The notes beneath the pieces were generated by a model. It made no database searches and had not been told where the DNA came from. It saw only the letters and a program-made list of their open reading frames with translations. Positions 10,183-31,961 of a stretch of DNA of 32,000 nucleotides are shown piece after piece. The position numbers and the translations under genes are program-made. Position 1 is the first letter of the stretch. Every line of letters starts with the position of its first letter. The DNA comes from Candidatus Saccharimonadota bacterium (GTDB taxonomy: Bacteria; Pseudomonadota; Alphaproteobacteria; CAJXXZ01; 1604HC). The stretch is taken from positions 300,001 to 332,000 of the forward strand of contig NZ_CP043316.1 in assembly GCF_008189405.1 (NCBI RefSeq), in the 5' to 3' direction.

Positions 10183-13100
10183 TCATACAGTCCATAAGCC
10201 AGGATCAACTACTTTTTCATCATATATATGATTTAATAATTGAGCGAAATACTCTAATGTTCCATGTTGATTTAACAATATATCAGTACCATTAGAAGTT
10301 TCAGGGCCATATCCACCTTCGCCAAAACTTCTTTTTTCATTAATAAATTGAAATGCAGCATTTAGTAATGCAGGATTCTGTATATATTGCACAAACTCAG
10401 ATAATGTTGAAACTATCTTATTGCTATTATGTAACAGCTTAGATATCATATGAATTTTGAAATTATCTGTTATATTCAAACCTAATCCCTCTCCATCAGA
10501 TAATGTAGTGAAAATATAAATACTAAAATAATTCATTAGAATTAGCGCTAACTTCTGCTTATATGCATTAAACATTTCATCAGAAATATTCACTCTATTC
10601 ATTTGATCAATTTGCTTTTTAGTATTACATAAAAATAATTCGAAATATTCAAAATATGCATTCATTATATAATCAATGTGACCTATCTTTTTATCCTCAC
10701 TAATTGATGTATTATTCCTAAAAGATCTTTCTAGGGCATCAATACTGTTAATAAGTGCAAATAAGAAATTCTCGTTATTATTTAGTAAATCATTTCCGTT
10801 CATTGCATATTTTAAAAAAGCATTCTGAGTAAGTGGATCATATTGATCATATTTTTTCATTACACTTCTAGAAAATCTAACAATGAATTGTAATAGATTA
10901 ATTTGCTGATCTAATTGTGATGAACTTATTTGTTGAGAAGGGTTTTCATTTTGGATAGAGCTTATATATTGTGTGAATAAAAATGATACTATATTGTTTA
11001 ACATTTCTGATTTAGTTTCATCAATAAGCATATAATCCAACCATCCTAATTTCATACTTAATGAGTTTAAGTCTGTTACAGAGCTAGATATTTCATTCAA
11101 ATCAAAAGTAGAAACAGCAAGATATTTTTTCAAACTATCATCATAACTAACAGCTCCATATTTAATAAATAAATCTACTACTTGTTTATTTAAATCTTGA
11201 GAATTATTAGCATTCACTAAACTATTAAACTTATTTACATATATTTCAACAACTTCTCTTATGTCATTGATTGAATTATTATAATAAAGGGTTATACAAA
11301 TGTTTTTCAGTAAATTATAATCTTTAATAGTTGTATATCCAGCAATATTTGGCTTGTTTTCTGGCAAATTCACATATCTAGCTATAATATTAGTATCTAT
11401 ATCTATATTTCGCGTAATTAATGCCCTTAAATATTGATTTTGATTACTTTCAATGTTTTCATACATTTCAAGTCCAACGACTAACTGTATAGCTAATTCT
11501 GTGATAAATGCTTTTTGAGAAATTGGTGGATTATTTTCTTGGTCATGTAACTTTAAAGCCCTATTAATTAATTCACATACTAATTGTGTTTTATGGTGTG
11601 TAGTTAAATTTTTAATAGAAATTTGATTATTTTGTGTATTAAATGCTTCTAAAATGCTTTCTGAATAGTTATCCCAAATATTTTCAATATATATAAATCC
11701 ATTGTTTACATTATTAATTAGATCGCTACTTATTATAACTGGTGCAATAATCCTAAATAACTGATCTGAGTATATTGGTTGTGATCCATATATTTCTCTT
11801 ATATAACTGAAATAATCATATGCTAACTTCTGATGATTTGCATTGCTCACATAGCTATTTATATGCATAATTGCATCTAATGCATCATTATTTATTTTAT
11901 CTATTTTACAATTTGACAACATTATAATATGCTTAATTATTTTCATTGCATATTCTGGTTCAATATAGTTGGTTCCTAATTTTTTTAAATGCTCTACAGT
12001 ATATGCTGTGAATGTAAAATTGATATTGTTCTTTTTGCTTTCACCTATCGCATAAGCACTTAACGCATCATTTCCATATATCATTCGATCGCGTATATCA
12101 ACAATTAACTCCCTTAACTTTAATGCACCAGTTGGCCTACTCATCTCACCTTTGATCCAACGAACTTCATTAGCTATGCTACCAGATTTATTTTTATTAA
12201 AAGCAGAATCAACATGCCTATCAATTTCTTCTGCTTCTTTTAATATTTTTCCTGCTTTATAGTTAATCGAATTTGCAACTCCCATTAATGCACCATCAGA
12301 TTGAAGGTCCATTTTTATTTGATTAATATTTGCATTAATATCACCATTAGGCTGTAATGCTTGAAGTATCAAGCTCATTTTGCTTCCAATATCACCATCA
12401 ATTTCTAGTATTTTCTTAATACAATCAACTTGATTTGCTAGTGTATCATCTTTTTCTTTATTTAATTGATCTTGTACATATTCTAATATTTCTCTAAAAG
12501 TTTTAATCTGATTTTGGCTTGAGTATGGATCTGGATTCATTTGTGTATCAATATTATTAACTTTTGAACTTATATCTTTAATTGCGATATCAAAAGGCCC
12601 TCCAGCTCTTACCGCTTGTGATATGAAAGTTACCTTCTCATTTATTTTATCTGTTTTTCCACTGACTGTATCTAACTTTGTATTTGTTTGAGCAATTTTA
12701 CCATTTACTACTTTTGCTACAGTATTCGTATCATCTACTTTTATAGATATTGTATTAACTTTTGTCTGTGTGGCATCTGCCTTATTATGCAACTCATTCA
12801 CTCTTTTCAAAGTTTCACTTACAAGCCCTTTAAGTAATTTTGGGTCATTAATATTAGATACCTCACGCAATATTTGATTTAGTATAGCTTGGAAATCAAT
12901 TGTATCACCTCCATTAGGTATGAAAAATGCAACTAAAGCTGCTTTAATATGATCTTGCATAATTTTATCATTATCATTTCCTTCTAAAATCTCTAGCATG
13001 TTTTTCAACATATTTTGACCTTCTATACCATCAGTAAAAAATCCCTTGATTTCTCCACAACACTTTTCTAATGCTGATAATATTTCATCATTCAAAGATT

Positions 13101-13929
13101 TGTTATTTTGAATTTTTGTGAGTATTTCTGCTAAATCACCAAAAATCTCTCCCATTTTATCTACAGATATTTCCCCTATTTTATCTGATAATTCTTTAAT
13201 ACTTAATTTAATAGCTTCATTTTGCTGATTAACATTAGTAACACCTTCTAGAATTTCACGTTTATTTTCTTCTTGGTTATAGTGATTTAAAATACTACTC
13301 ATTGAATTATTTATCGATTCATCTATTTTTGCTTCATGACAAATAAAATCCATAATATCTTTTCTACGATCTTCAGTGCTAAATGCATTTTTCAAACCAC
13401 TATCATCAAGCACTTTATACTGCATAGCTAATGATTTTATAATTTGAAAAAACTTTACTACATCTTGTAAATATGTAAATTCATCATTATTTAAATCACC
13501 ATGAATTGGTTTTTCTATAAGCTGCTGATTTGACACATTAATATTTAAAACATGATGGTTTTCTCCATCTTGTATTGTATTTAAATGTCTGATTGGATCA
13601 ATATCGAATTCATGGATAACTCCTTTAGAGTAATTATATGAAAACACCCTATCTATATCTTTTTCATTTCTAATACATCGTAGTCTATACGCAACAATTC
13701 CTTTTTGTTTTTGCAGATGAGATGATAAACCATCAAAGACAACTCCATTTAAATTTATTAATTTATGGCTATCTAGGCCTACCCACCCTTGCAAACATGG
13801 GGTAGAATTTTCTATTAAATTTGTACAAATTTGAATTTTTTCTAAATCTTCTGCAGAAACTGCACTATTAACCTTTAATATACATATAACCATGAAAGGA
13901 AGTATTTTATTATTACAATGCATTTTCAC
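10183..13929 (-). CDS. Giant exported protein of unknown function (1248 aa on the track). It is a paralog of 19525..22026.
   Basis: There is an N-terminal Sec-type signal (KILPFMVICILKVNSAVSA|ED). The track start at 13929 is GTG. ATG at 13923 sits 5 nt downstream of AAGGAG and is the more likely start. The protein shares C-x9-C-L-x2-W, FDG, VAYRL.C.RN, VFSY.Y.K, HHV and KFF.I.KS motifs with the 833-aa protein. I recognised no known family. Confidence 0.8.
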   Translation of the reverse strand: MKMHCNNKILPFMVICILKVNSAVSAEDLEKIQICTNLIENSTPCLQGWVGLDSHKLINLNGVVFDGLSSHLQKQKGIVAYRLRCIRNEKDIDRVFSYNYSKGVIHEFDIDPIRHLNTIQDGENHHVLNINVSNQQLIEKPIHGDLNNDEFTYLQDVVKFFQIIKSLAMQYKVLDDSGLKNAFSTEDRRKDIMDFICHEAKIDESINNSMSSILNHYNQEENKREILEGVTNVNQQNEAIKLSIKELSDKIGEISVDKMGEIFGDLAEILTKIQNNKSLNDEILSALEKCCGEIKGFFTDGIEGQNMLKNMLEILEGNDNDKIMQDHIKAALVAFFIPNGGDTIDFQAILNQILREVSNINDPKLLKGLVSETLKRVNELHNKADATQTKVNTISIKVDDTNTVAKVVNGKIAQTNTKLDTVSGKTDKINEKVTFISQAVRAGGPFDIAIKDISSKVNNIDTQMNPDPYSSQNQIKTFREILEYVQDQLNKEKDDTLANQVDCIKKILEIDGDIGSKMSLILQALQPNGDINANINQIKMDLQSDGALMGVANSINYKAGKILKEAEEIDRHVDSAFNKNKSGSIANEVRWIKGEMSRPTGALKLRELIVDIRDRMIYGNDALSAYAIGESKKNNINFTFTAYTVEHLKKLGTNYIEPEYAMKIIKHIIMLSNCKIDKINNDALDAIMHINSYVSNANHQKLAYDYFSYIREIYGSQPIYSDQLFRIIAPVIISSDLINNVNNGFIYIENIWDNYSESILEAFNTQNNQISIKNLTTHHKTQLVCELINRALKLHDQENNPPISQKAFITELAIQLVVGLEMYENIESNQNQYLRALITRNIDIDTNIIARYVNLPENKPNIAGYTTIKDYNLLKNICITLYYNNSINDIREVVEIYVNKFNSLVNANNSQDLNKQVVDLFIKYGAVSYDDSLKKYLAVSTFDLNEISSSVTDLNSLSMKLGWLDYMLIDETKSEMLNNIVSFLFTQYISSIQNENPSQQISSSQLDQQINLLQFIVRFSRSVMKKYDQYDPLTQNAFLKYAMNGNDLLNNNENFLFALINSIDALERSFRNNTSISEDKKIGHIDYIMNAYFEYFELFLCNTKKQIDQMNRVNISDEMFNAYKQKLALILMNYFSIYIFTTLSDGEGLGLNITDNFKIHMISKLLHNSNKIVSTLSEFVQYIQNPALLNAAFQFINEKRSFGEGGYGPETSNGTDILLNQHGTLEYFAQLLNHIYDEKVVDPGLWTV

Positions 13930-19524: not shown

Positions 19525-22026
19525 TTACATAGGGATTTCTTCAGGATCTCCACCTCCATTTCCTATCTCTAATATTGATAAAGCATGTTCAGATCCTGGG
19601 AAAGGGCTCATTATCAAGTATATGTGCATAAATCGTAAGAATTGAGACTGTGTACTTATTAACAATCTTAATACATTTTCATTTTGTGCTATGTATGACA
19701 TATATTTTCTAACCATACATCCAGCCTCATATTTTAAGCTGTTATTATTAATATTAATATTTTCATAATCCATAATTGTATTTGTAACAAATGTTAATAA
19801 ATGTAAATATGCTGGATGATTATTTTCTCCAAATTCTGCAATCTGTTTTTTCATATAGCAGAATAGCTCGCTGTCATACTGCTTCAAAAACAATGCTGTA
19901 TTCATATTTGGTTCGATTGCAATTTTACTGAATAATTTTGTTAATACTTTATCGTATATATTATCCAAATTATTTGCCTCTAGATCTGAAGTGTCTTTAT
20001 TTCTCATTATTGCGACTGCTAAGTCAATTGCTTGTTTTTTAGTTAATGCTTTTGCAATATTAATATCATTATCATTACTTGTAAAGCTTTGAGAAAACAT
20101 ATGATCTATTTTTAATACTGTATCAGATTGTTTGTTTCCACTACTATCATATACAACATCATCATTTGAATTAGAGAATCCATATTTGAAGATTTGAGAC
20201 AAAATTTCTCTTCGTTTTTGTCTATTGTCATCATTATGAGCTATATCTTCAAAAACAACTGAATTATTCTTCAATGCTCTTAATTTAAATACACTATCTA
20301 TTCCATTAGCATATCCACTTAGTGTATTAATCACAATATTGTAATCATTTTTATTTGCATTGCCATCTTCATAAGGTGTTATATTCATATCTTCATTATA
20401 TAAACCTTTAAATAATTGCATAATATCTGGAGCAAAAGCAATTGCAAACTTTGTGACTTCAGATCTGATTTCTTGTTTACCTATCTCATTAGATTCTTCA
20501 CTCATAAATATATCAGCAACATGTTTTATAGATAATTGTAAATCCCCACCATTAATATCTTTATAATTAGATATAAGCCCTTTATCTAAGTGAGCATTAA
20601 CAACTCCAGAAGCCATAGGGAAGATATATTTATTCTGCATTACAAATGGGTTGCCATCACTAAATTCAGCACCATTAAGCAAAGCATATATTTCTGATAT
20701 ATTATTAATATCTGAACTTAAAATAGAGTATCTTCTAGTTATATGATGTATTGTATCGTTAATCAGCTCTAGTTTATCTGGATCAGCAAGGTACATATTA
20801 GCAGACATTATGCTTTTTAAATCATCATGCTTCAGCATATTTTCTTTAGTAAATGATTCAAGAGTTGGGAACCATAATGGCATCATGTATCTTAGATAAT
20901 CAGATGCTAAATTATCAAATTGTAGATTAATTCGATCATTACGGTAACTTAGCACTCTGCGTTCAGGTTGTTGAAATTGATTAAATTGACCAAGCATAAA
21001 TTCAGAGTATAATGTATCAAAATTATCATCATTAAGAATTGATGCTTCATCATCAGAAATATTATTGATAATCATCGTAATCGCATCTATCACATTTTGA
21101 GATGGATTTGTAAAACCACATGAAGATTTCTCTATAATAGTTTTTACTAACCACATTGCATGTACTGAAGATTCAATTGGAACAGGGTTATTTCTTTTAT
21201 CAAAAATATAATGATTCACGAATTGTGTAGCTGAGATACTTCCATCTTGTAATTCATTCAACCATTTAACTTGATACTCACCTACAATACCTAAGATTTC
21301 TGGATTTCTTTCTGGGCGTATAAGTATATTAAGATTTGCACAATTATGTTGCAATTGAGCAAAAGATATAATACTGATTATAGAATCATTCATAGAATGC
21401 CTTGAATTCACTTCCAAACAAATACGCTTCATTGTATCTACATTATGTGTATCATCAAGTGAACTTTTTAATTTATTATCTTTTAGTAATGCAATTTGTA
21501 ATTTATAAGACTTAAGAATATGGAAAAATTTATCAGCATCTTTGTAGTAAGATCTTTGATCATCAGATAACTTATTTTTATCAGATAGTAAATCTCTTAC
21601 AAGATGATCAGTTGTTAGATCAACTTTTGCAACATGATGTATATCATCATCTTGCACATCTGCCAAATCTGTATTGACATTAAAATTGTTACCAAAGTGA
21701 TGTAATTCATTTTTTGTATAATCATAGCTAAAAACTTCATCAAATGCTTTCCCATTCCTATTACACTTTAATCTGTAAGCAACATATCCAGTAGATCTAG
21801 ATTCCAATGAATTAATTCCATCAAATTCAATTTCATCTTTGATTAAAAAGTTTTTAATTGCATCGCTATCCATACCATGTAACCAAGATCTCAAGCAATT
21901 TGATTCATTATTTATTAAACCAGGGCAAGTACTTAGCTTACTATAATCAGTAGGCTGTTCCTTTCTTGCAAATGATGTTTGCAACATGCAAATAGTTAGC
22001 AATGGTAATAATTTTCTATTATTCAT
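19525..22026 (-). CDS. Large exported protein of unknown function (833 aa). It is a paralog of 10183..13929.
   Basis: There is a Sec-type signal (RKLLPLLTICMLQTSFA|RKE). GGAGG lies 4 nt upstream of the ATG. N-terminal residues ~30-215 are collinear with the 1248-aa protein. Further shared patches are HAMWLVKTIIEKSSC..NVIDAI versus YAMKIIKHIIMLSNC..DALDAI, and SELFCYMKKQI versus FELFLCNTKKQI. Confidence 0.8.
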   Translation of the reverse strand: MNNRKLLPLLTICMLQTSFARKEQPTDYSKLSTCPGLINNESNCLRSWLHGMDSDAIKNFLIKDEIEFDGINSLESRSTGYVAYRLKCNRNGKAFDEVFSYDYTKNELHHFGNNFNVNTDLADVQDDDIHHVAKVDLTTDHLVRDLLSDKNKLSDDQRSYYKDADKFFHILKSYKLQIALLKDNKLKSSLDDTHNVDTMKRICLEVNSRHSMNDSIISIISFAQLQHNCANLNILIRPERNPEILGIVGEYQVKWLNELQDGSISATQFVNHYIFDKRNNPVPIESSVHAMWLVKTIIEKSSCGFTNPSQNVIDAITMIINNISDDEASILNDDNFDTLYSEFMLGQFNQFQQPERRVLSYRNDRINLQFDNLASDYLRYMMPLWFPTLESFTKENMLKHDDLKSIMSANMYLADPDKLELINDTIHHITRRYSILSSDINNISEIYALLNGAEFSDGNPFVMQNKYIFPMASGVVNAHLDKGLISNYKDINGGDLQLSIKHVADIFMSEESNEIGKQEIRSEVTKFAIAFAPDIMQLFKGLYNEDMNITPYEDGNANKNDYNIVINTLSGYANGIDSVFKLRALKNNSVVFEDIAHNDDNRQKRREILSQIFKYGFSNSNDDVVYDSSGNKQSDTVLKIDHMFSQSFTSNDNDINIAKALTKKQAIDLAVAIMRNKDTSDLEANNLDNIYDKVLTKLFSKIAIEPNMNTALFLKQYDSELFCYMKKQIAEFGENNHPAYLHLLTFVTNTIMDYENININNNSLKYEAGCMVRKYMSYIAQNENVLRLLISTQSQFLRFMHIYLIMSPFPGSEHALSILEIGNGGGDPEEIPM

Positions 22027-22185: not shown

Positions 22186-23364
22186 ATGTTTTGCTCTGGC
22201 CCAACAAAAAAATATGCAGAATTTTCATCCTATAATTTATTAGAAGGTTTAGGTAGATCTCATAGATCTGATTTATGGGAAAATAAAATTCAAGATATAT
22301 ATTCTTTAATTAAAAAATCATTACAAATCCCAGATAATTACCAAATAGGGTTTATCAATGGATCAGCAACAGCAGCAATAGATTCATTGTTTTGGAATTT
22401 TTTAGGTTCAAAACCATGTCATGTGCTAGAGACTGGAGTATTTAGTAAAAGATGGGGAAATGAGATATTTAATGTACTAAAAATCCCTGGAAAATCAATT
22501 CAGCCCATCAACTTAATCAAGCAAACTAACTCATATCAAAATAATTTTGATAATCTAAATAATACTAATTATGGTCCTAATGTTCTAAATAACAGATTCA
22601 ATTATAATTATGATTTCGTATTTACTATGGTAGAAACCACAAATGGATCTAGGTGGTTTGATAAAAATGTTTTAAATAAAATTCAAGGATTAAAGTTCTG
22701 TGATGCAACCTCTGCAGTCTTTTGTGAGAATATAGATTGGAATTTATTAGACTATACTGCTTTTTCATTTCAAAAAGCATTAGGTGCAGAAGCTGGAATA
22801 GGATGTGTTGTATTAAGCCCTAAAGCTATCGATCATATGAATAATCATAATCCTAAATTCCCAACCCCACGATTTCTACAAATCAATCATAGTATTTTCC
22901 AAGGAAAGCTTAATAATACCCCATCACTTATTTCATTAAATGATATTGCGATTAACTTAAGCATTTTTTTAAATAAAGGTGGGTTACCAAATGCAATCAA
23001 GCAATGCAAGTTGAATCAAAGTCAAATTATGGATATTTTATCTCCAACATTACAGTGTATAAACTGCAATCACATCAATACAAATCATAATGCAAATGCA
23101 ATTTTATGCATGGAAATGAGTCAATGGGGAAATAATCTCATTAATCATAATATATATAGTGATAAAATAAGTAAAAATATAATAGATGAAGAAAAATGGC
23201 GAATCATACATAAAGTTGCCAAACAATCTGAGCAATTCGGAATATTTGATATAGCAGGACATCCTGAAGATACTCCATGTTGGAGATTTTGGATTGGGCC
23301 CACTATAGATAAAATTCAATCATATATTAACCAATTTATAGATATTATAAGGGATGCAATTTAG
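22186..23364 (+). CDS. serC: Phosphoserine aminotransferase (alphaproteobacterial long-form SerC)
   Basis: FCSGPTKK, GRSHRS, DNYQIGF.NGSAT.AIDS, FCDATSAVF..NIDW..LDYTAFSFQKALGAEAG (PLP-Lys context SxQK), LSPKAI, NTPS and WRFWIGPTI are collinear with the alpha-type SerC pattern (FSSGP ... GRSHR ... ICDATSA ... SWQKvLGGE ... RIWCGATV). Confidence 0.8.
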   Translation: MFCSGPTKKYAEFSSYNLLEGLGRSHRSDLWENKIQDIYSLIKKSLQIPDNYQIGFINGSATAAIDSLFWNFLGSKPCHVLETGVFSKRWGNEIFNVLKIPGKSIQPINLIKQTNSYQNNFDNLNNTNYGPNVLNNRFNYNYDFVFTMVETTNGSRWFDKNVLNKIQGLKFCDATSAVFCENIDWNLLDYTAFSFQKALGAEAGIGCVVLSPKAIDHMNNHNPKFPTPRFLQINHSIFQGKLNNTPSLISLNDIAINLSIFLNKGGLPNAIKQCKLNQSQIMDILSPTLQCINCNHINTNHNANAILCMEMSQWGNNLINHNIYSDKISKNIIDEEKWRIIHKVAKQSEQFGIFDIAGHPEDTPCWRFWIGPTIDKIQSYINQFIDIIRDAI

Positions 23365-24244
23365 TAAAAAGCTAATTATATTATTATCACATTTTCCATT
23401 TTTCAAAAAAAATACAGAAGATCGAAATATTGCACGCGTAATAGCTGATGTGGTTCATGATAAAAATTGTTATAAATCAAAAAGTAATCTCAATAAATGT
23501 ATCTTAGATTTAATCACAACTAAAAAATATGAAATAAACAGATTAGCACAATCTGCAAAAACAGATACGGTAAAAAGATTTATATATAAATATAATGCAA
23601 ATAAAAGAAACCTTGAGAAATCTAATATGATTGGAGAGGTTTACCCTAAGCATCGTAAATATGATAAAGCTATTTTATTATATGATGAAGATCAAAATAT
23701 CGAAGTATTTAGAGCTAAATTAATATTTTTAGAAACATTACACTCAAAAGGATATTCTTGGGACAAAATTGATATTATCGTTAGTTCGAAAATGAAAAAT
23801 TATAGCTTTGAAACCCTTTCAATCTTAAATAATAAATCAAAAAAACTTCCAATTAATACAAACATCAAAATAGATAAATCATCATATAAACCATCCAATG
23901 ATCTTGAAATTGTAAAATACATATTGGAACAAATGAAAATTAGCCCTGCACTATCTAAGCAGATAAACTTTTATGTTAAACAAGAATCAATTAATCAATT
24001 AATGGAAAATTGGATTGAAGATAATTATAATACCAAAGCAATTGATATTCAAATTAACCCTACAATTCCATACTATAAATCTAAATGGAATACATATTCA
24101 AATTATGATGCTAATAAAATTGAAGTTATAGGAGGTGAAGGTGTAACAGATAGCGAATCTCCAATAAGGCTTTATAAGAATGCTGAACTTATATTAAGCA
24201 ATATAGGAATGTACTACAGTAACTTATATAAATACCACTTCTAA
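23354..24244 (+). CDS. Hypothetical protein, 296 aa, Lys/Asn-rich, with no signal peptide recognised
   Basis: It is a long intact ORF on the coding strand that overlaps the serC stop by 11 nt. I could identify no motif. Confidence 0.5.
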   Translation: MQFSKKLIILLSHFPFFKKNTEDRNIARVIADVVHDKNCYKSKSNLNKCILDLITTKKYEINRLAQSAKTDTVKRFIYKYNANKRNLEKSNMIGEVYPKHRKYDKAILLYDEDQNIEVFRAKLIFLETLHSKGYSWDKIDIIVSSKMKNYSFETLSILNNKSKKLPINTNIKIDKSSYKPSNDLEIVKYILEQMKISPALSKQINFYVKQESINQLMENWIEDNYNTKAIDIQINPTIPYYKSKWNTYSNYDANKIEVIGGEGVTDSESPIRLYKNAELILSNIGMYYSNLYKYHF

Positions 24245-24372
24245 TACAAGGTAGTTTATATAACTTGATACAGGCATAAAAAATATAGAGCTAACAAATA
24301 ATTTGCATAATTATATATTGAAGCTTTATTATAAATAAAATTATTTATTTGATTATGGGTATTTTTAATAAT

Positions 24373-24810
24373 TTATCCATTTTTAGAATGCTTGAATAAA
24401 TCTTCAATTTGCTGCATAGATAAGATCAAATCATTGAAAGATAATGTAAGGAATTTTTCATATCCTTCTAGGTATTTATCAATTTCATATTGTAATTTAT
24501 TAAGAGTATCTAACCCTTTCTTTGACAATGTAATTTCATATGCTCTTTTATCATATTTAGATTTTTCTTGTTTGATATAACCATACTTTTTCATTTGTTT
24601 AATATTGTATGGAATATTAGGTAAAAAATAATTATTTGATAGTTCTAATAATCCAAATTTATTTTCTGATATAAATAATAATAGTACAGCTTGTGTAGCA
24701 GATAGATCATTTATATTAATATTTTTTATATTATTTTTCATAGTACTAAACACAACTTTATTTAATCTAATAATATGTTCTAATAATATATTAAAACCTT
24801 TTCTTTCCAT
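24373..24810 (-). CDS. MarR-family winged-helix transcriptional regulator
   Basis: At 145 aa it has LSATQAVLLLFI......LLELS (helix-turn-helix), then KQMKKYGYIKQEKSKYDKRAYEITLSKKGLDTL (wing; cf. L...G.i.r....D.R...i.LT.kG). The SD-like AAGAGGG lies upstream of the ATG. Confidence 0.8.
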   Translation of the reverse strand: MERKGFNILLEHIIRLNKVVFSTMKNNIKNININDLSATQAVLLLFISENKFGLLELSNNYFLPNIPYNIKQMKKYGYIKQEKSKYDKRAYEITLSKKGLDTLNKLQYEIDKYLEGYEKFLTLSFNDLILSMQQIEDLFKHSKNG

Positions 24811-24858
24811 AATTATGCCCTCTTTTATATCATTTAATATACTTATTATAATTTTGAT

Positions 24859-24891
24859 ACATTTAAATAAAGTAAAATAAAATTTAAATGT
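24859..24891. promoter_or_regulatory. Perfect 10-bp inverted repeat (ACATTTAAAT - 13 nt - ATTTAAATGT) in the divergent marR / birA-like intergenic region; candidate operator
   Basis: Read directly from the sequence: 24859..24868 is acatttaaat and 24882..24891 is atttaaatgt, which are exact reverse complements. It lies between the divergently transcribed 24810 (-) and 24931 (+) start codons. The AT-rich background makes a chance occurrence plausible. Confidence 0.35.
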
Positions 24892-24930
24892 TTTTAGTAT
24901 AATTTTAAATTAACATTGATATTATAACTC

Positions 24931-25515
24931 ATGTCTATTAACTTACCTTTAGGGTTCCAATTGATAATCAATAATAATATTATAGAATATGCAAATGCAA
25001 ATAAGCTAGAAAATAATACTGTGTTTATTTCTGAAGATGCATTAAAAAACCATAATAATTTAGAGGTATATTTTGCATTTAATCGATTTTCTAAATCAGA
25101 ATTGCTATTTATATCTATTATTTCCATACATAAATTGTTATCTAATATAAATATAAAGTGTGAATTAATCTGGCCAAATAAATTAGTTATCCAAAATAAA
25201 ATTATTGCACAATGTAATACTCAAAGTGTGAATAGTATGCAAATAGTTAAAATAAAAATAAAATCTATAATAAGTAATAAGCATATCTTAATTAAACTAT
25301 GCGAACAAATGAACTTTAAATTGCACCAAATTAGCATGATTGGGAAGCATTATATTATAAACCAAATCCAAGCACTAATCAGGCAAAAAAAGAAAGAATA
25401 TGAAAATATACCTTTTCTAATACAAAATATAGATAAAAATGGCGATTTACAAATAGTTTCTTCAGATTATACAAAGCATAAGCTAAAGTTAGATGATTTT
25501 ATATGTAATACTTAA
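24931..25515 (+). CDS. Highly divergent biotin-protein ligase (BirA/BPL)-like protein, possibly catalytically degenerate
   Basis: CELIWPNKLVIQNKIIAQ (25171..) resembles the BPL hallmark (l/i)KWPND(l/i)....kK(l/i)(a/s)GIL. The upstream IIEYAN....NTVFISED resembles idSTN....g.vv.Ae.Q. The expected GRGRxGRxW loop position reads ALKNHNNLEVYF, and no GIGxN block is evident. Confidence 0.45.
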   Translation: MSINLPLGFQLIINNNIIEYANANKLENNTVFISEDALKNHNNLEVYFAFNRFSKSELLFISIISIHKLLSNINIKCELIWPNKLVIQNKIIAQCNTQSVNSMQIVKIKIKSIISNKHILIKLCEQMNFKLHQISMIGKHYIINQIQALIRQKKKEYENIPFLIQNIDKNGDLQIVSSDYTKHKLKLDDFICNT

Positions 25516-26081
25516 GTATTATTACATAAATATAAATAAGCAGGTGGGAAATTATTCAATATATATCCACATTTATTGGCATTTAACCCATATTTTTTTG
25601 ATTTCTTTTTAAAAAATGGACTATATGACATTTGTAAATAATCTACACCAGAATCTACAAATCTAGCAAATAATTTCATGATTTGTGTTGATTTTTCAGC
25701 TCCTAATGATATTAATGGTAATGTAGAAACAAAGCTATTAATTGTATCTATACCTAATTCCACCAATATATCATCAATATGTAAAATATCTCTGTTTAGA
25801 ACCTTAGCCTTTGGGAATTTTTTAGCTAAAACGCTACAAAACTCATTATCTATTTCAAAACAAATAATTTTTTCTTCTGGCACTCCATGTTTGATTAATG
25901 ATTCTGTAACTGTTCCTGTTCCTGATCCCACTTCAATTATAAAGCCATCTTTATTTAGATTTATATTTTTAGCAAAACACTTCCCAACAGAAGATGTGCT
26001 AGGAATTATAGACCCCATTCTAAATGGATTTGCAAACCATTTTTTTAGAAATATTCTCTTACTCACAAGATATTTTACCAA
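25512..26081 (-). CDS. Class I SAM-dependent methyltransferase, PmtA-like (COG3963 phospholipid N-methyltransferase type)
   Basis: FLKKWFANPFRMGSIIPSTSSVGK, FIIEVGSGTGTVTE (GxGxG SAM motif I), ICFEID.EF...L...FP and the C-terminal NNFPPAYLYLC follow the Rhodobacter-type PmtA layout (F...P...G...PSS ... E.G.GTG ... N.PPA.vy.c). The start codon is TTG. Confidence 0.6.
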   Translation of the reverse strand: MVKYLVSKRIFLKKWFANPFRMGSIIPSTSSVGKCFAKNINLNKDGFIIEVGSGTGTVTESLIKHGVPEEKIICFEIDNEFCSVLAKKFPKAKVLNRDILHIDDILVELGIDTINSFVSTLPLISLGAEKSTQIMKLFARFVDSGVDYLQMSYSPFFKKKSKKYGLNANKCGYILNNFPPAYLYLCNNT

Positions 26082-26179
26082 ATCACAATATTTCTGTCAA
26101 AAATGCAGAATGATCAGCTTTTATGAAATTATTACTTATTTTGATTAATTATTTTTTATAAAGTTTTTTGCTTGCTTTC

Positions 26180-26761
26180 TTATGAATCATTATTAATTTC
26201 ATAGCAATTTAAATAAGTGATTGGCACCCCCCAAATAGGTTTACAAAATATCTTTTTCATACCATAATTTGAAGATTTAATACGAACAAATGGGGTGTAG
26301 GAAACATGCAGCATTTTCCCATGATTTAAATTCATTATTTTAACACATGAGTTTATTATTGCATTTGTAATAGATTTATTTATAGATAAAAAAGGAATTG
26401 ATGAAACAATGATCTCTACTTTATTTAATAAATCATGATCAATATAGCGTTCTAATTCAGCAGCACTTTGATTAATTATAGATAATTCTGGAAATTTACT
26501 ATGTAAAATATTACATAATTCTTTATCAATTTCTATACAAATAATTCTTTTATTAATTTTTTCATTTTGGTATAAAAATTTTGTCAGAGCACCAGATCCG
26601 CTCCCAATTTCTAGTATATATCCGTTATCTGAAATCTCTGGCATATTATCTATTAATTTTTTCCCTACTTTTGGTGACAGAGGTAAAAATGTCCCCATCC
26701 TACTAGGATTTTTTATCCATCTCTTTGCAAATTTTATATTCTCTTTACTAAAAATAGACAT
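26180..26761 (-). CDS. Class I SAM-dependent methyltransferase, second tandem PmtA-like paralog
   Basis: FAKRWIKNPSRMGTFLPLSPKVGK, YILEIGSGSGALTK, ICIEIDKEL..IL...FPE and SSIPFLS are collinear with the neighbouring methyltransferase. The C-terminal PPA motif is replaced (WGVPITYLNCY). Confidence 0.6.
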   Translation of the reverse strand: MSIFSKENIKFAKRWIKNPSRMGTFLPLSPKVGKKLIDNMPEISDNGYILEIGSGSGALTKFLYQNEKINKRIICIEIDKELCNILHSKFPELSIINQSAAELERYIDHDLLNKVEIIVSSIPFLSINKSITNAIINSCVKIMNLNHGKMLHVSYTPFVRIKSSNYGMKKIFCKPIWGVPITYLNCYEINNDS

Positions 26762-26858: not shown

Positions 26859-28301
26859 TTAGTTTGATTTTTTCTCTATCTTTAAATTCAAAGCATTAAA
26901 ATATAAATTCATATCTACAGATTCACAAGATAATAACAGAATTTTAGCAATATGCTCCTGTTGTATTGTTCTTTTGATTTCTTGTATAATTTCATGATTT
27001 TGCAAATCATCATATGTGTTATATGCATTTTTTTGATTCACTTTATAACTACTTTTATTTTCTAAATATATATTTATGAGTTGTTGTATATCTATTATTG
27101 CATTGTTTTGAAATATTTCATGCTTATCAATCAATTCATTATATTCAATAGAATTTTTACACTGTTCTATAAAATCATTATATTCATTCATAAACCTATC
27201 AATACATTTAGAATGCTGGTTAGCATATGTAACATTGTTTTGTTTGGAATCATGCAAATCAATCACATAATAACTATCAAGTGCTATATAATCATCAATA
27301 TACTCACTTAGATATAGCAGTTGAGATCTAATACTACATAAAATAATTTCTAATATATTATTATGTTGTGATTGACCATTAGATGCTTTTATTATATTTA
27401 AAATCAAAAAACTTACTTTAATATTATGAATGATCGTATTAAATTTATATGTCATATCATATGCTTTGCTACAATTCACCTTAATCATCTTTTCATAACC
27501 TATTTTAGATTTAATTGAATTTTGTTGGAGTTTTTTATACTTTGCATACATATTATTATCTACATCAGAAATAATATTTGTTTCTTGTGATGCTAATACA
27601 CTGTCACTCACTATATTTTTCATATTATTTTGATTAATATTTTTTAATTCTTTAAAATTAAATAAAGAAAAACATTGGAAAGCATTAATAATATTTTCAC
27701 ATAAAGTTCCTTCTTCTACTTTAATTAAGCAAAGTGAACTTATTATTTGTTGATTTTTTATATTTTCACACACTATACTATAAATAATCTCTATATCTTT
27801 TTCAGTAATTTGAATATATTTAACTTTCCTTTCTAAAATTAATAAAATTGTCTCTAAATCAGATATTCCCGTAGCTATTTCTATTTCATAATGCATTTTA
27901 ATACTTTCAATTGCAGAAGCCTTTTGATCTGATTTTATAGAATTTTTAATTATATTCGTAAGGTTTGAAATTGAAATTGCATAGTACAATTTATCTCTTG
28001 ACACATTTGAACTCTTTAATAGTTTGGTTTGCTCTTCTGTAAGTTCAATACATTCACCCAAAGAAAAAAAATGATCAATACTTTTATCATATTCTTTAAT
28101 AATATTTAATAAATAATTAGATTTACCATTTGGATTCTGAATAAACAATGCAGAAGCATCGATATTTTTACCTGAATATTTTTCAAGATTGTGCTCCTGA
28201 AAAAATGATTCAATTGCTCTATCAACAGTTTCATTAATATTTACCTTAGCATTTAATATAAGCACAACAAACAAACTGATAATAATATTATACATATACA
28301 T
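26859..28301 (-). CDS. Exported protein of unknown function (480 aa). It is a tandem paralog of 28420..29598.
   Basis: There is an N-terminal hydrophobic signal (IIISLFVVLILNA|KVNINETV). The first ~215 aa are collinear with the neighbouring ORF: INETV..A.ESFFQE.NL.KY.G....ALFIQ.......NYLLNI, LGEC.ELT.EQT..LK, YAISISNL..IIKNS.K..QKAS...SIKMH, I.ITE.D, EGTL. The C-terminus is unrelated. Confidence 0.75.
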   Translation of the reverse strand: MYMYNIIISLFVVLILNAKVNINETVDRAIESFFQEHNLEKYSGKNIDASALFIQNPNGKSNYLLNIIKEYDKSIDHFFSLGECIELTEEQTKLLKSSNVSRDKLYYAISISNLTNIIKNSIKSDQKASAIESIKMHYEIEIATGISDLETILLILERKVKYIQITEKDIEIIYSIVCENIKNQQIISSLCLIKVEEGTLCENIINAFQCFSLFNFKELKNINQNNMKNIVSDSVLASQETNIISDVDNNMYAKYKKLQQNSIKSKIGYEKMIKVNCSKAYDMTYKFNTIIHNIKVSFLILNIIKASNGQSQHNNILEIILCSIRSQLLYLSEYIDDYIALDSYYVIDLHDSKQNNVTYANQHSKCIDRFMNEYNDFIEQCKNSIEYNELIDKHEIFQNNAIIDIQQLINIYLENKSSYKVNQKNAYNTYDDLQNHEIIQEIKRTIQQEHIAKILLLSCESVDMNLYFNALNLKIEKKSN

Positions 28302-28419
28302 AGTATAATTATAACATTAAAATTTAAAAATCAATAATATTTCTGATTCAATATTTAGTGTTTTAGTATTTGGGAGTTTATAACAAAAAATAATAGGTGA
28401 TCATATGACCTATCAGAAT

Positions 28420-29598
28420 TTACTGAATAAGTTTTTGTATATCATTTAATTTTTTCTTGGCAACTTCAAGTGCTTTTTTCATTTCTAATACTGTGATTTT
28501 CGCTTCTGTATTCTGACCTTCAAGATTAGGTTTATCTGCATCACTTGCATGATTCAAATTATATCCTGCTATTTTTTCTTGTTTTTCACTTATATTTAGA
28601 TTCAATTCTGCAATTGATAATTCACATGCTACAACTTCCTTCTGTGCATTTTGATATTTTGTATTATTTATATTACGATCATTTGGTTTGATTTTATTTA
28701 TTGCACTTTTCAAATTAATTAATTTTTTTTCTTTTTCAGCTATAAATTGTTTATCATTTTCTATATTAACTTCTATATTATTAATATCTTCAGCACTTAG
28801 ATTTTCTTCTGAAACAGTCTCAATAGGAGTTATTTTTGGTGATTCTGTCCCTTCATGATCTTCTAATGATGATTCTTTTTCATTATCTGATTCAGTCACA
28901 GTCTTGAATGAATTTAATACATCAAAAACTTCTTGTTCATCTAAGTTTCCATCAAAACTCTTCTCTTTAAAAGAATCAAAAAAACCAATTACAATGCTTG
29001 CCAAAGTTCCTTTTTCGGCACCTTTCTCAATAATTTCACTCACTTCTTCTTTTGATACTTGTAACCCTGCAAATAATTTTACATCCTCTTCAGTAATTTT
29101 AATTTCATTAGCAAGAATTGTATCATCTGATGCTAATGACTTAACCACATCTTCATTAGATAGTTTTTGAGCATCTTTTATCTCATCATGCATTTTAATA
29201 CTATCAACTACAGAAGCTTTTTGTTCTATTTTTTTAGAATTTTTAATAATATCTACAAGATTGCTAATTGAAATTGCATAACTTAATTCATTTTTTGAAG
29301 TTTTAGCATTTTTTAATGCTTCTGTTTGCTCTTGTGTTAATTCAACGCACTCTCCTAAAGCAAAGTCACCAATTGCATTATCGCTTTTATTAATATTCAA
29401 TAAATAATTAGTTTTTTTATCTGCACTTTGAATAAATAGTGCAACAGCATCAACACCTTTATATTTCTTAAGATTGTCTTCTTGAAAAAATGATTCAACC
29501 GCTTTATTAACTGTTTCATTAATGTCTACTTTTGCATATAAAGAAGCAAGCAATAAACCACCTAATAATATATTATTTTTGTTCATGATTACATACAT
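28420..29598 (-). CDS. Exported protein of unknown function (392 aa). It is a tandem paralog of 26859..28301, with an acidic linker and a C-terminal coiled coil.
   Basis: The signal peptide is clearest from the internal ATG at 29586 (MNKNNILLGGLLLASLYA|KVDINETV). It shares the N-terminal module with the 480-aa protein. The C-terminal half has an acidic stretch (TESDNEKESSLEDHEGTESPKITPIETVSEENLSAEDINNIE) followed by Lys/Glu heptad-like sequence. Confidence 0.75.
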   Translation of the reverse strand: MYVIMNKNNILLGGLLLASLYAKVDINETVNKAVESFFQEDNLKKYKGVDAVALFIQSADKKTNYLLNINKSDNAIGDFALGECVELTQEQTEALKNAKTSKNELSYAISISNLVDIIKNSKKIEQKASVVDSIKMHDEIKDAQKLSNEDVVKSLASDDTILANEIKITEEDVKLFAGLQVSKEEVSEIIEKGAEKGTLASIVIGFFDSFKEKSFDGNLDEQEVFDVLNSFKTVTESDNEKESSLEDHEGTESPKITPIETVSEENLSAEDINNIEVNIENDKQFIAEKEKKLINLKSAINKIKPNDRNINNTKYQNAQKEVVACELSIAELNLNISEKQEKIAGYNLNHASDADKPNLEGQNTEAKITVLEMKKALEVAKKKLNDIQKLIQ

Positions 29599-29746: not shown

Positions 29747-30172
29747 TTATTTGATTCCTGTAGAGCCAAATCCACCTCGATCATTCAATTCTATATCTCC
29801 AGATTGTAATTTATATGAATTCAACTTATTAATAATCATTTGCGCGATTCTAAAATATGGTTCAACTATGAATTCTGCATCACTAAAATTAATCAAAATC
29901 ACTTTAACTTCTTTCCTATAATCTGAATCAATTGTTCCTGGTGAGTTTAATACACAAACTCCATTTTTATATGCTAACCCAGATCTAGACCTAATTTGAG
30001 CTTCATGCATTTCAGGTAATTCTATACAAAATCCTGTTGGAATCAACACTCTTTGCATTGGCTTGATAGTCACATTTTCATCTATACTAGCATATAAATC
30101 AAAACCTGCACTTTCAGCAGTTGCTTGAATAGGCATGCATTTATTATTTAGTAATTTTATATTTATTTTCAT
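29747..30172 (-). CDS. dut: dUTP diphosphatase
   Basis: AESAGFDLYA, RSRSGLA.KNG, PGTIDSDYRKE and the C-terminal RGGFGSTG are the five dUTPase motifs, in order. Confidence 0.95.
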   Translation of the reverse strand: MKINIKLLNNKCMPIQATAESAGFDLYASIDENVTIKPMQRVLIPTGFCIELPEMHEAQIRSRSGLAYKNGVCVLNSPGTIDSDYRKEVKVILINFSDAEFIVEPYFRIAQMIINKLNSYKLQSGDIELNDRGGFGSTGIK

Positions 30173-30968: not shown

Positions 30969-31961
30969 TTAGTGTTGTTCAAAAAAATTGATTTTCATAG
31001 CGCTTCTTACATTTTTCATTGTGCGCACTGCAACTTCTCTTGCTTTTTTTGTCCCTGATAATAGGATATTTTTCATATCAGCATCATTTAATGCATTTCT
31101 TCTTTCTCTAATAGGGGCGATGAAATCTTGCAATGTTTGATTTAACAGCTTTTTCAATTTCACATCACCTAGCCCACCTTTTGCATAATGAGCTTTTAGA
31201 TCTTCTAGGTGGTTTTTATCCTCATAAAACGCATCTAAATATTCAAAAACAACATTACCTTCAACCTTTCCTGGATCACTAACATGTATATGATTTGGGT
31301 CTGTATACATTTCAAAAACTTTACGCCTTATCTCTTCTTCTGAATCTGACAGAATAATTGCATTACCCAAAGATTTGCTTGCTTTAGCCTTACCATCAAT
31401 ACCAACCAATCTTTGCGTATTACTTAGAACTGCTTTAGCTTCTTTCACAATTCCTTCACCATAAGTTGCAGAAAACTTCCTTACAATTTCATTTGTTTGT
31501 TCAATCATAGGGATCTGATCATTTCCCACAGGCACAAAATCAGCTTGAAATATCGTGATATCTGCTGCCTGACTTACTGGATAGCATAAAAATCCCATAG
31601 GCAATGAATTTTCATAATTCTTTTGTTGAATTTCAGTCTTTACAGTTGGGTTTCTCTCTAAACGACCTAAGGTCACTAAATTCATATAATAAAATGTTAA
31701 CTCTGTTAGCTCTGGAATTGCAGATTGCAGTAGGAAAGTAGTTTTGTCTGGATTTAATCCAATAGAAATATAATCTTTCATAACTTCTAAGATATTTGTT
31801 GATATAATATCTGCATTATTATCTGTCATGGCTTGTAAATCAGCAATCATCACATACTGTTCATGCTTTTCCTGTAATTCAACACGTGATTTTAAAGATC
31901 CAACATAATGCCCTAAGTGCAATTTACCAGTTGGTCTATCTCCTGTTAGAATAATACTCAT
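30969..31961 (-). CDS. trpS: Tryptophanyl-tRNA synthetase
   Basis: TGDRPTGKLHLGHYVGS (HIGH), GNDQ and KASKSLGN (KMSKS) are present. The length and overall layout are typical of bacterial TrpRS. Confidence 0.95.
   Translation of the reverse strand: MSIILTGDRPTGKLHLGHYVGSLKSRVELQEKHEQYVMIADLQAMTDNNADIISTNILEVMKDYISIGLNPDKTTFLLQSAIPELTELTFYYMNLVTLGRLERNPTVKTEIQQKNYENSLPMGFLCYPVSQAADITIFQADFVPVGNDQIPMIEQTNEIVRKFSATYGEGIVKEAKAVLSNTQRLVGIDGKAKASKSLGNAIILSDSEEEIRRKVFEMYTDPNHIHVSDPGKVEGNVVFEYLDAFYEDKNHLEDLKAHYAKGGLGDVKLKKLLNQTLQDFIAPIRERRNALNDADMKNILLSGTKKAREVAVRTMKNVRSAMKINFFEQH

What the first reader, a model, noticed from the sequence alone, without database searches (positions are those of the whole stretch)
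26859..29598. Tandem exported paralogs sharing a novel N-terminal module of about 215 aa
After their signal peptides the 480-aa and 392-aa proteins align by eye with many identities:
- KV(N/D)INETV(D/N)(R/K)A(I/V)ESFFQE(H/D)NL(E/K)KY.G
- ALFIQ......NYLLNI
- LGEC(I/V)ELT(E/Q)EQT..LK
- (Y/S)YAISISNL..IIKNS.K..QKAS...SIKMH.EI
- I(Q/K)ITE(K/E)D(I/V)
- (E/K)(E/K)GTL......(A/G)F..F

I could not match this module to any known family. Duplication in tandem, export signals and rapid divergence are the signature of surface or secreted host-interaction proteins in intracellular bacteria. Together with the giant paralog pair, this window holds four lineage-specific exported proteins.
Basis: partly seen in the sequence, partly recalled or inferred. 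Interest (0 to 1): 0.7.

Follow-up and report, generated by a model that had tools for sequence, protein, structure and literature searches.

The report
Duplicated orphan exported protein of Cytomitobacter
Two neighbouring genes of a tiny-genome bacterial endosymbiont of a marine protist are real duplicates encoding exported proteins of a fast-evolving family found only in that bacterial genus. This is typical of intracellular bacteria, and the function remains unknown.

Summary
The 480-aa and 392-aa ORFs (minus strand) share an N-terminal region at 46% identity over 202 aa (BLASTP E 2e-46).

The window comes from Candidatus Cytomitobacter primus, a 622-kb Holosporales endosymbiont that lives free in the cytoplasm of Diplonema japonicum.

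The module matches no known family. It had no hit in Pfam, NCBIfam, PDB sequences, PHROGs, PADLOC, plasmids or phages. An exhaustive HMMER scan of 1.84 billion representative proteins returned only the two proteins themselves.

The family is not limited to this species. The gene directly downstream of dut in C. indipagum (522 aa), and a fragment from a third uncultured relative, are very diverged positional orthologs (hhalign E 2.7e-4 over 167 columns). Housekeeping neighbours in the same two genomes are 52-86% identical, so this family evolves unusually fast.

Both proteins have only an N-terminal signal-peptide-like hydrophobic segment. Neither has a lipobox or a further membrane segment. 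Both reading frames are intact, while the other frames carry 10-85 stops.

Structure prediction failed for the module. The best reading is Sec-exported periplasmic, surface or secreted proteins built from a conserved N-domain and a variable helical C-terminus. A role in host interaction is plausible but untested. Interest is modest.

The parts
28420..29598 (-). Upstream paralog, 392 aa (Cp392). The probable true start is at 29586, giving 388 aa.
   Evidence: ORF. The exact protein lies on C. primus chromosome OX638200.1. The annotated 388-aa form is P0006.
29533..29598 (-). Signal-peptide-like N-terminus of Cp392 (aa 1-22, MYVIMNKNNILLGGLLLASLYA|KV)
   Evidence: It has a Lys in the n-region, a 13-residue uncharged run, Ala at -1, no lipobox and no further TM-like window. 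Not confirmed with SignalP.
28954..29532 (-). Shared N-terminal module of Cp392 (aa 23-215)
   Evidence: 46% identity to Cp480. hhalign to the C. indipagum/Logan orthologs gives E 2.7e-4.
28807..28953 (-). Acidic linker of Cp392 with no predicted structure (aa 216-264)
   Evidence: pLDDT about 31-37. The C-terminal part is 19.9% D+E.
28420..28806 (-). Helical, coiled-coil-like C-terminal region of Cp392 (aa 265-392, plus stop)
   Evidence: AlphaFold2 gives three long helices (269-301, 313-349, 356-391) at pLDDT 64-86. It has no similarity to Cp480.
26859..28301 (-). Downstream paralog, 480 aa (Cp480; GenBank QEK38573.1, 'hypothetical protein')
28248..28301 (-). Signal-peptide-like N-terminus of Cp480 (aa 1-18, MYMYNIIISLFVVLILNA|KV). 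It has no positively charged n-region.
   Evidence: KD9 maximum of 3.5, an 11-residue uncharged run and no other TM-like window.
27654..28247 (-). Shared N-terminal module of Cp480 (aa 19-216)
26859..27653 (-). Unique C-terminal region of Cp480 (aa 217-480). It is rich in Ile and Asn and is predicted helical at low confidence.
   Evidence: No family hit. FYMINK 0.485 and GARP 0.057; the whole Cp480 gene has the lowest GARP of the 27 window genes. pLDDT 25-53.
29747..30172 (-). dut (dUTPase), the conserved synteny anchor directly upstream of the pair
   Evidence: Pfam PF00692. The order trpS-pgsA-dut followed by unknown proteins with signal-peptide-like N-termini is kept in three related genomes.

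Best explanation
The two ORFs are functional, tandemly duplicated genes of a family restricted to Cytomitobacter that evolves very fast. Its members are Sec-exported soluble proteins.

**Architecture.** Each protein has three parts:
- a cleavable N-terminal signal peptide, with predicted cleavage after ..YA/..NA and before KV(D/N)INE;
- a conserved alpha/beta domain of about 195 aa;
- an unrelated, largely helical C-terminal region, which in the 392-aa copy is an acidic linker plus a coiled-coil-like region.

**History.** The ancestral gene sits in a fixed slot directly downstream of trpS-pgsA-dut. It duplicated in the C. primus lineage after the split from C. indipagum.

**Proposed mechanism (inferred).** SecYEG and signal peptidase I deliver the mature proteins to the periplasm, which is prominent in this bacterium. 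The shared N-domain performs the common step, either docking to an envelope partner or recognition by the retained GspD/PilQ-type secretin. The divergent helical C-termini supply the copy-specific interaction. Because the bacterium lies naked in host cytoplasm next to mitochondria, that interaction is most likely with host structures.

**Shown:** paralogy, genus-level orthology, absence from known families, intact reading frames, purifying selection on the first ~120 residues of the domain, and extreme divergence relative to neighbouring genes.

**Inferred:** export, final location and host target.
For: - **Paralogy.** BLASTP E 2e-46 and DNA repeats of 72-80% identity.
- **Organism and genomic context**.
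- **Orthology in relatives.**
  - Ci522 lies directly after dut in C. indipagum.
  - The A1 profile scores Ci522 at 13.3 bits. Only 1 of 2000 shuffles reached that score.
  - The Logan fragment matches Ci522 at E 3e-30, and matches the A1 profile at a different, collinear segment.
  - hhalign of A1 against A4 gives E 2.7e-4 over 167 columns, end to end.
  - The negative control against the giant-pair module gives E 0.63 over 15 columns.
- **Export signal.** There is only an N-terminal hydrophobic segment and no lipobox. The crude rule flags none of the cytoplasmic housekeeping proteins. All positional equivalents have MNK/MNN-hydrophobic-..NA|D/K termini.
- **Export machinery.** C. primus keeps secABDEFY, ffh, gspD/gspF and pilB/pilQ.
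- **Selection.** There are 0 stops in frame against 10-85 in the other frames. dN/dS is 0.37 for aa 19-140.
- **Fast evolution**.
- **Location of the bacterium.** It is free in the cytoplasm without a host membrane, has a prominent periplasm and associates with mitochondria.
- **C-terminal helices of Cp392**.
Against: - No dedicated signal-peptide predictor could be run.
- Cp480 has no basic n-region, and -3 is Leu in both copies.
- The second half of the module has dN/dS of about 1.4. Cp480 has the most AT-driven amino-acid composition in the window (lowest GARP). Part of the protein, or the whole 480-aa copy, may therefore be under relaxed constraint.
- There is no evidence of expression.
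- There is no structural model. pLDDT for the module is 30-50 in both runs.
- Nothing distinguishes a periplasmic from a surface or secreted location.
- Homology to the analogous proteins in the same slot of two further related genomes is not demonstrable.
Confidence: 0.6

Rival explanations
1. They are resident periplasmic or envelope proteins that serve the bacterium itself. For example, they could be abundant structural or spacer proteins of the prominent periplasm that compensate for lost envelope functions. In this reading they have no direct host target.
For: - Sec-type signals deliver only as far as the periplasm.
- The bacteria have a 'prominent periplasm'.
- Tol-Pal components are largely missing.
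- The coiled-coil C-terminus fits a structural spacer.
- There is no beta-barrel, autotransporter or known secretion-domain hit.
Against: - Housekeeping envelope proteins do not usually diverge beyond BLAST detection between congeners whose other genes are 52-86% identical.
- The C-termini of the two copies are unrelated.
- The slot carries different proteins in related genomes.
Confidence: 0.25
2. One or both ORFs, most likely the 480-aa copy, are duplicates under relaxed constraint and on the way to loss. Their fast divergence would then reflect drift in a tiny asexual population, not host-driven selection.
For: - Cp480 has the lowest GARP (0.069) and a high FYMINK content.
- Its n-region has lost its positive charge.
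- dN/dS is about 1.4 in aa 141-220.
- AlphaFold finds nothing confident.
- C. indipagum manages with one copy.
Against: - The frame runs 480 codons without a stop in DNA of 22% G+C, where the other frames have 23-85 stops.
- The first 120 residues of the module have dN/dS of 0.37.
- George et al. call only 7 pseudogenes in this genome, which implies rapid deletion of dead DNA.
- The protein is identical in two independent assemblies.
Confidence: 0.1
3. They are polymorphic toxin or T6SS-type effectors. In this reading the conserved N-terminal module would be a trafficking domain and the variable C-termini would be toxic payloads.
For: - The architecture, a conserved N-domain with a variable C-terminus, resembles polymorphic effectors.
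- The genome keeps a reduced T6SS with VgrG/PAAR.
- One ortholog fragment gives a weak, sub-threshold Imm6 hit (E 0.0084, 16 bits against a cut-off of 25).
Against: - T6SS substrates do not carry Sec signal peptides.
- There are no PAAR, VgrG, Rhs, MIX or toxin domain hits.
- No small immunity-like ORF follows either gene.
- The Imm6 hit occurs in 1 of 4 members only.
Confidence: 0.03

Closest known systems
Unannotated 'putative secreted hypothetical proteins' of diplonemid endosymbionts (George et al. 2019/2020, bioRxiv 10.1101/719211)
   Same: It is the same organism and the same class. The study predicted 60 signal-peptide proteins and 169 hypothetical proteins in C. primus and proposed that they mediate bacterium-host or inter-bacterial interactions. 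Cp480 is deposited as a hypothetical protein, QEK38573.1.
   Different: In the text I read, that work does not define this family, its tandem duplication, its dut-linked slot or its ortholog in C. indipagum.
Periplasmic proteins of infectious-form Holospora obtusa (89-kDa and 63-kDa proteins) that are released into the host during infection (cited in PMC11909080)
   Same: They come from the same order (Holosporales). They are lineage-specific, reach the periplasm first and are then released towards host structures. They are the nearest functional precedent.
   Different: I found no detectable sequence relationship. The exhaustive profile search returned only the two query proteins. A direct comparison with the Holospora sequences was not run. 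Cytomitobacter has no known infectious form.
The 'giant' paralog pair in the same window (1248 aa at 10183..13929 and 833 aa at 19525..22026)
   Same: The design is the same: a signal-peptide-like N-terminus, a shared N-terminal module of about 215 aa (35% identity, E 8e-34), divergent C-termini and very fast evolution (28% identity to the C. indipagum ortholog).
   Different: The N-modules are unrelated (hhalign E 0.63). The giants are Cys-patterned and dispersed, not adjacent.
Tandem pair of 547 and 1083 aa downstream of dut in an unnamed 619-kb relative (ENA ERZ25333217; locus L085)
   Same: It occupies the same genomic slot. It is also a tandem pair with signal-peptide-like N-termini, a shared N-module (E 5e-22) and different C-termini, one low-complexity and one coiled coil.
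   Different: Homology to the C. primus module is not demonstrable. hhalign gives E 0.2 and 0.0099, with probability 0.3-4%, and hmmsearch finds no hit.

Membership tests
Sec/SPase I-cleaved exported protein (signal peptide) | Positively charged n-region | tested here: inconclusive
   Cp392 has Lys7 (MNKNN from the annotated start). Cp480 (MYMYN...) has no Lys or Arg before the hydrophobic core.
Sec/SPase I-cleaved exported protein (signal peptide) | Hydrophobic h-region of about 7-15 residues near the N-terminus, with no further membrane segment | tested here: met
   Uncharged runs of 13 and 11 residues with KD9 of 2.7 and 3.5, and no window with KD19 >= 1.6 beyond residue 35. The same rule flags none of the window's cytoplasmic enzymes.
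Sec/SPase I-cleaved exported protein (signal peptide) | c-region with small residues at -1/-3, and a positive call by a trained predictor (SignalP or Phobius) | not testable with these tools
   Ala is at -1 and Leu at -3 in both copies (..LYA|K..LNA|K). The conserved sequence begins exactly after this site. No predictor is available.
Bacterial lipoprotein (SPase II) | Lipobox [LVI][ASTVI][GAS]C at the end of the signal peptide | tested here: not met
   There is no lipobox and no Cys in the first 40 residues of either protein.
   Both proteins hit 0 families at E <= 0.1 in Pfam and NCBIfam. At E <= 10, each weak hit occurs in only one of the four members. The best PDB sequence match is E 0.63.
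Autotransporter / Sca-type surface proteins | C-terminal beta-barrel translocator domain | tested here: not met
   There is no Pfam hit. The C-termini are predicted all-helical.
Polymorphic toxin / T6SS effector | Known trafficking domain (PAAR, VgrG, Rhs, MIX, LXG), a C-terminal toxin domain and an adjacent immunity gene | tested here: not met
   No such domains were found. No small downstream ORF exists. A Sec-type N-terminus is atypical for T6SS cargo, which is established knowledge.
Cytomitobacter dut-linked exported protein family (defined here) | Position directly downstream of trpS-pgsA-dut, a signal-peptide-like N-terminus, and a collinear profile match over the ~195-aa module | tested here: met
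   Cp392, Cp480, Ci522 and the Logan fragment meet it. The proteins in the same slot of L084 and L085 meet the position and signal-peptide criteria but not the profile match.

The most novel reading that the evidence does not exclude
The position directly downstream of dut may be a conserved diversification slot in diplonemid-associated Holosporales. In each lineage it is occupied by exported proteins that are repeatedly duplicated in tandem. These proteins keep an N-terminal export or anchoring domain of a so far undescribed fold, while their helical or repeat C-termini are replaced. In this reading the products would be the factors that tether the naked bacteria to the host mitochondrion or otherwise manipulate it.
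Probability: 0.12. Interest if true: 0.6.

Novelty: new member of a known kind. Interest (0 to 1): 0.3.

Why it matters
Cytomitobacter has a genome of about 620 kb and almost no metabolism of its own. It lives unenclosed in host cytoplasm, pressed against or wrapped by the mitochondrion, and is thought to be an energy parasite. Whatever mediates that contact must be among its roughly 60 exported proteins.

This work defines one fast-evolving family restricted to the genus. It has a fixed genomic address, a conserved N-domain and variable C-termini. That gives localisation and interaction experiments a concrete, small set of candidates.

On its own, though, an orphan exported family in an obligate intracellular bacterium is an expected finding. 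It does not change any general picture.

Tried and rejected
- **The search for homologous proteins with alignments A1 and A3** returned nothing, not even the query proteins, although these are in that collection. I treat these negatives as uninformative.
- **Genome-contig scan with A1** found no relative.
- **TrpRS scan** returned only Firmicutes and other unrelated MAGs at 55-60% identity. It did not help identify the organism. The exact-protein look-up did.
- **Metagenome scans** with A4 and A1 were negative. A3 was too diverged to build search patterns.
- **AlphaFold2** was run twice, once on Cp392 alone and once on Cp480 with a two-sequence alignment. The module scored pLDDT 30-50 in both.
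I ran no further search on unreliable models.
- **Weak single-member hits** were rejected as chance, being below cut-off or confined to one member: P116-like, Imm6, PI3K_rbd, PADLOC PDC-M02A and AbiEii.
- **Promoter and terminator scan** found fewer promoter-like sites than the shuffles did, and one terminator-like site against 0.7 expected. It is uninformative in this AT-rich DNA.
- **Alignment of the upstream regions** showed only AT-rich noise.
- **Search for a decayed second copy** in the 810-bp gap after the C. indipagum gene found none.
- **Relationship to the giant-pair module** was rejected.
- **Plasmid and phage tblastn** found no match.
Full report
**Observation.**
- BLASTP aligns residues 18-216 of Cp480 with residues 22-215 of Cp392 at 46% identity (93/202), E 2e-46. 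Nothing significant aligns beyond that region.
- All the quoted motifs are present.
- At DNA level the modules form direct repeats of 72-80% identity spaced about 1290 nt apart. There are no long identical tracts, so the duplication is old and not recently homogenised.
- Each coding frame is free of stops over 480 or 392 codons. The other five frames contain 10-85 stops each.

**Source and context.** Exact-sequence look-ups place the window on the 622,378-bp chromosome OX638200.1 of Candidatus Cytomitobacter primus. Cp480 is GenBank QEK38573.1, 'hypothetical protein'.
- C. primus is a Holosporales endosymbiont of the diplonemid Diplonema japonicum. It lives free in the cytoplasm without a host membrane, has a prominent periplasm and associates closely with the mitochondrion.
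- Its genome retains secABDEFY/ffh, a reduced T2SS/T4P set (gspD, gspF, pilB, pilQ) and a partial T6SS. The authors predicted 60 proteins with signal peptides and 169 hypothetical proteins.
- Locally, trpS, pgsA, dut, Cp392, Cp480 and two PmtA/OlsG-like methyltransferase paralogs all lie on the minus strand, separated by gaps of 67-165 bp.

**No known family.**
- Pfam and NCBIfam give no hit at E <= 0.1 for either protein.
- At E <= 10, each weak Pfam hit occurs in only one of four family members.
- The best PDB sequence match is E 0.63.
- PHROGs, PADLOC, plasmids and phages give nothing consistent.
- A profile of the two modules, scored by HMMER against all 1.84 billion representative proteins, returned only the two proteins themselves.
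- The word-indexed searches failed to return even the queries. I discount them.

**The family extends beyond the species.** I used dut as an anchor to fetch the syntenic loci of relatives.
- **Shared gene order.** trpS-pgsA-dut is conserved. In three genomes the next gene or genes encode unknown proteins with signal-peptide-like N-termini:
  - 522 aa, then a 795-aa protein, in C. indipagum;
  - 1689 aa and 291 aa in ERZ25333236;
  - 547 aa and 1083 aa in ERZ25333217.
- **A genome without the slot.** A more distant 558-kb MAG has no such gene after dut.
- **Orthology of Ci522.**
  - The profile of the C. primus pair picks the 522-aa protein as the top non-self hit among 117 local ORFs (13.3 bits, E 2.9e-4).
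  - Only 1 of 2000 shuffles reaches that score.
  - The aligned segment (EINITEADMEYFAEL...AEEGTLAHFI) is at a collinear position.
- **A bridging fragment.** A 186-aa fragment from Logan assemblies SRR12358675/6, also right after dut, matches Ci522 at E 3e-30. It matches the C. primus profile at a different collinear segment, VDAVAFVIAKSDKK against VDAVALFIQSADKK.
- **Profile-profile comparison.** The C. primus pair against Ci522 plus the Logan fragment gives E 2.7e-4, probability 41%, over 167 columns from the signal peptide to the GTL motif.
- **Negative control.** The same method against the N-module of the giant pair, from the same genomes and with the same composition, gives E 0.63 over 15 columns.
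- **Conclusion.** Cp392 and Cp480 are lineage-specific duplicates of a gene that is single-copy in C. indipagum. No remnant of a second copy survives there.
- **The other two genomes.** For their slot proteins, homology is not demonstrable. The 547/1083-aa pair repeats the same design, a tandem pair with a shared N-module (E 5e-22) and different C-termini.

**Rate of evolution and selection.**

| Comparison (C. primus vs C. indipagum) | Result |
|---|---|
| Flanking housekeeping genes | 52-86% identity |
| Giant exported protein | 28% identity |
| This family | no BLAST hit at E 1e-3 (about 20% identity in hhalign) |

| Region compared between Cp392 and Cp480 (Nei-Gojobori) | dN/dS |
|---|---|
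| Whole alignment | 0.66 |
| Residues 19-140 | 0.37 |
| Residues 141-220 | about 1.4 |

Third codon positions are 85-88% A/T. dS is therefore underestimated and these ratios are upper bounds. Cp480 has the lowest GARP content of the 27 window genes and a high FYMINK content, most extreme in its unique C-terminal region. This suggests weaker constraint than on Cp392.

**Export signal and architecture.**
- Both proteins have a single hydrophobic segment at the extreme N-terminus, no lipobox and no later membrane-like window.
- The conserved sequence starts right after the putative cleavage site..YA/..NA|KV(D/N)INETV.
- A crude rule flags only these two, the two giants and the MlaD-like anchor protein among 27 genes in the window.
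- Cp480 lacks a basic n-region, and no trained predictor was available. Export is therefore probable, not proven.
- AlphaFold2 gave low confidence for the module in both runs (pLDDT 30-50). Both runs showed the same secondary-structure order: a helix, a three-stranded sheet, then helices.
- The C-terminal 128 residues of Cp392 form three long helices at pLDDT 64-86, preceded by an acidic linker with no predicted structure.
- Foldseek on the poor model was meaningless.

**Interpretation.** The best-supported reading is a Sec-exported protein family restricted to the genus and evolving fast. It has a conserved N-domain and variable helical C-termini, was duplicated in C. primus, and sits at the edge of a conserved synteny block.
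- The bacterium is naked in host cytoplasm and retains a secretin, so a surface or released location with a host-directed role is plausible. The Holospora periplasmic proteins that are released into the host are a functional precedent in the same order.
- A purely periplasmic structural role cannot be excluded. Neither can partial decay of the 480-aa copy.
- The T6SS or polymorphic-toxin reading fails its defining features.

**Novelty and score.** The proteins are already in databases as hypothetical proteins, and the class was noted in general terms by George et al.. What is new here is the delineation of the family, its dut-linked slot, its orthologs and its duplication history. That makes it a new member of a known kind. 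Interest is modest at 0.3.

Noticed in passing
window 10183..13929 (-) and 19525..22026 (-): The 'giant' pair (1248 and 833 aa) has the same design as the finding: a signal-peptide-like N-terminus and a shared, Cys-patterned N-module of about 215 aa (35% identity, E 8e-34), with otherwise divergent sequences. The C. indipagum ortholog (795 aa) is only 28% identical. The module is unrelated to the one in the finding.
   Followed up: partly
L085:10509-15603 (ENA ERZ25333217, 619-kb genome) and L084:10505-16778 (ERZ25333236): The slot directly downstream of dut holds different unknown proteins with signal-peptide-like N-termini in each related genome. One case is another tandem pair (547 and 1083 aa) that shares only an N-module (E 5e-22). 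Another is a 1689-aa protein full of coiled-coil repeats. The slot looks like a hotspot for lineage-specific exported genes.
   Followed up: partly
window 25512..26081 (-) and 26180..26761 (-): Two adjacent paralogous small methyltransferases match phospholipid N-methyltransferase PmtA and ornithine-lipid OlsG best, though well below the curated cut-offs. The pair is conserved in C. indipagum and in a 558-kb alphaproteobacterial MAG. This hints at membrane-lipid head-group methylation being retained in a 620-kb genome.
   Followed up: no
window ~22186..26761 versus L083:12876-19995: The block holding the methyltransferases, the 194-aa protein, the MarR/LdtR-like regulator, the 296-aa protein, the SerC-like protein and the giant is rearranged between C. 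primus and C. indipagum. The paralog pair therefore sits at a synteny breakpoint, while the upstream run from dnaN to trpS-pgsA-dut is collinear.
   Followed up: partly
window 23354..24244 (+): A 296-aa protein with no family hit overlaps the end of the SerC-like gene by 11 nt. It is conserved in C. indipagum (52% identity) and, at the same length and position, in the distant MAG (L086:2423-3313). It is a conserved unknown rather than a lineage-specific orphan.
   Followed up: no
L083:2384-5203 (-) (C. indipagum): A 939-aa protein with a signal-peptide-like N-terminus carries long (EAKEP)n and AEEKV tandem repeats. The positional counterpart in C. primus (746 aa, just outside the window) shows no BLAST similarity to it.
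   Followed up: no
window 30969..31961 (-): The best genome-collection matches for the tryptophanyl-tRNA synthetase were Clostridia, Bacilli and other gut MAGs at 55-60% identity, not Alphaproteobacteria. This may be an artefact of the pattern-based scan, or it may hint at a foreign origin for trpS.
   Followed up: no
L083:12067-12876: An 810-bp stretch of 18% G+C with no ORF lies between the 522-aa and 795-aa genes of C. indipagum. That is unusually long for a 628-kb genome. It shows no trace of a decayed second paralog.
   Followed up: yes
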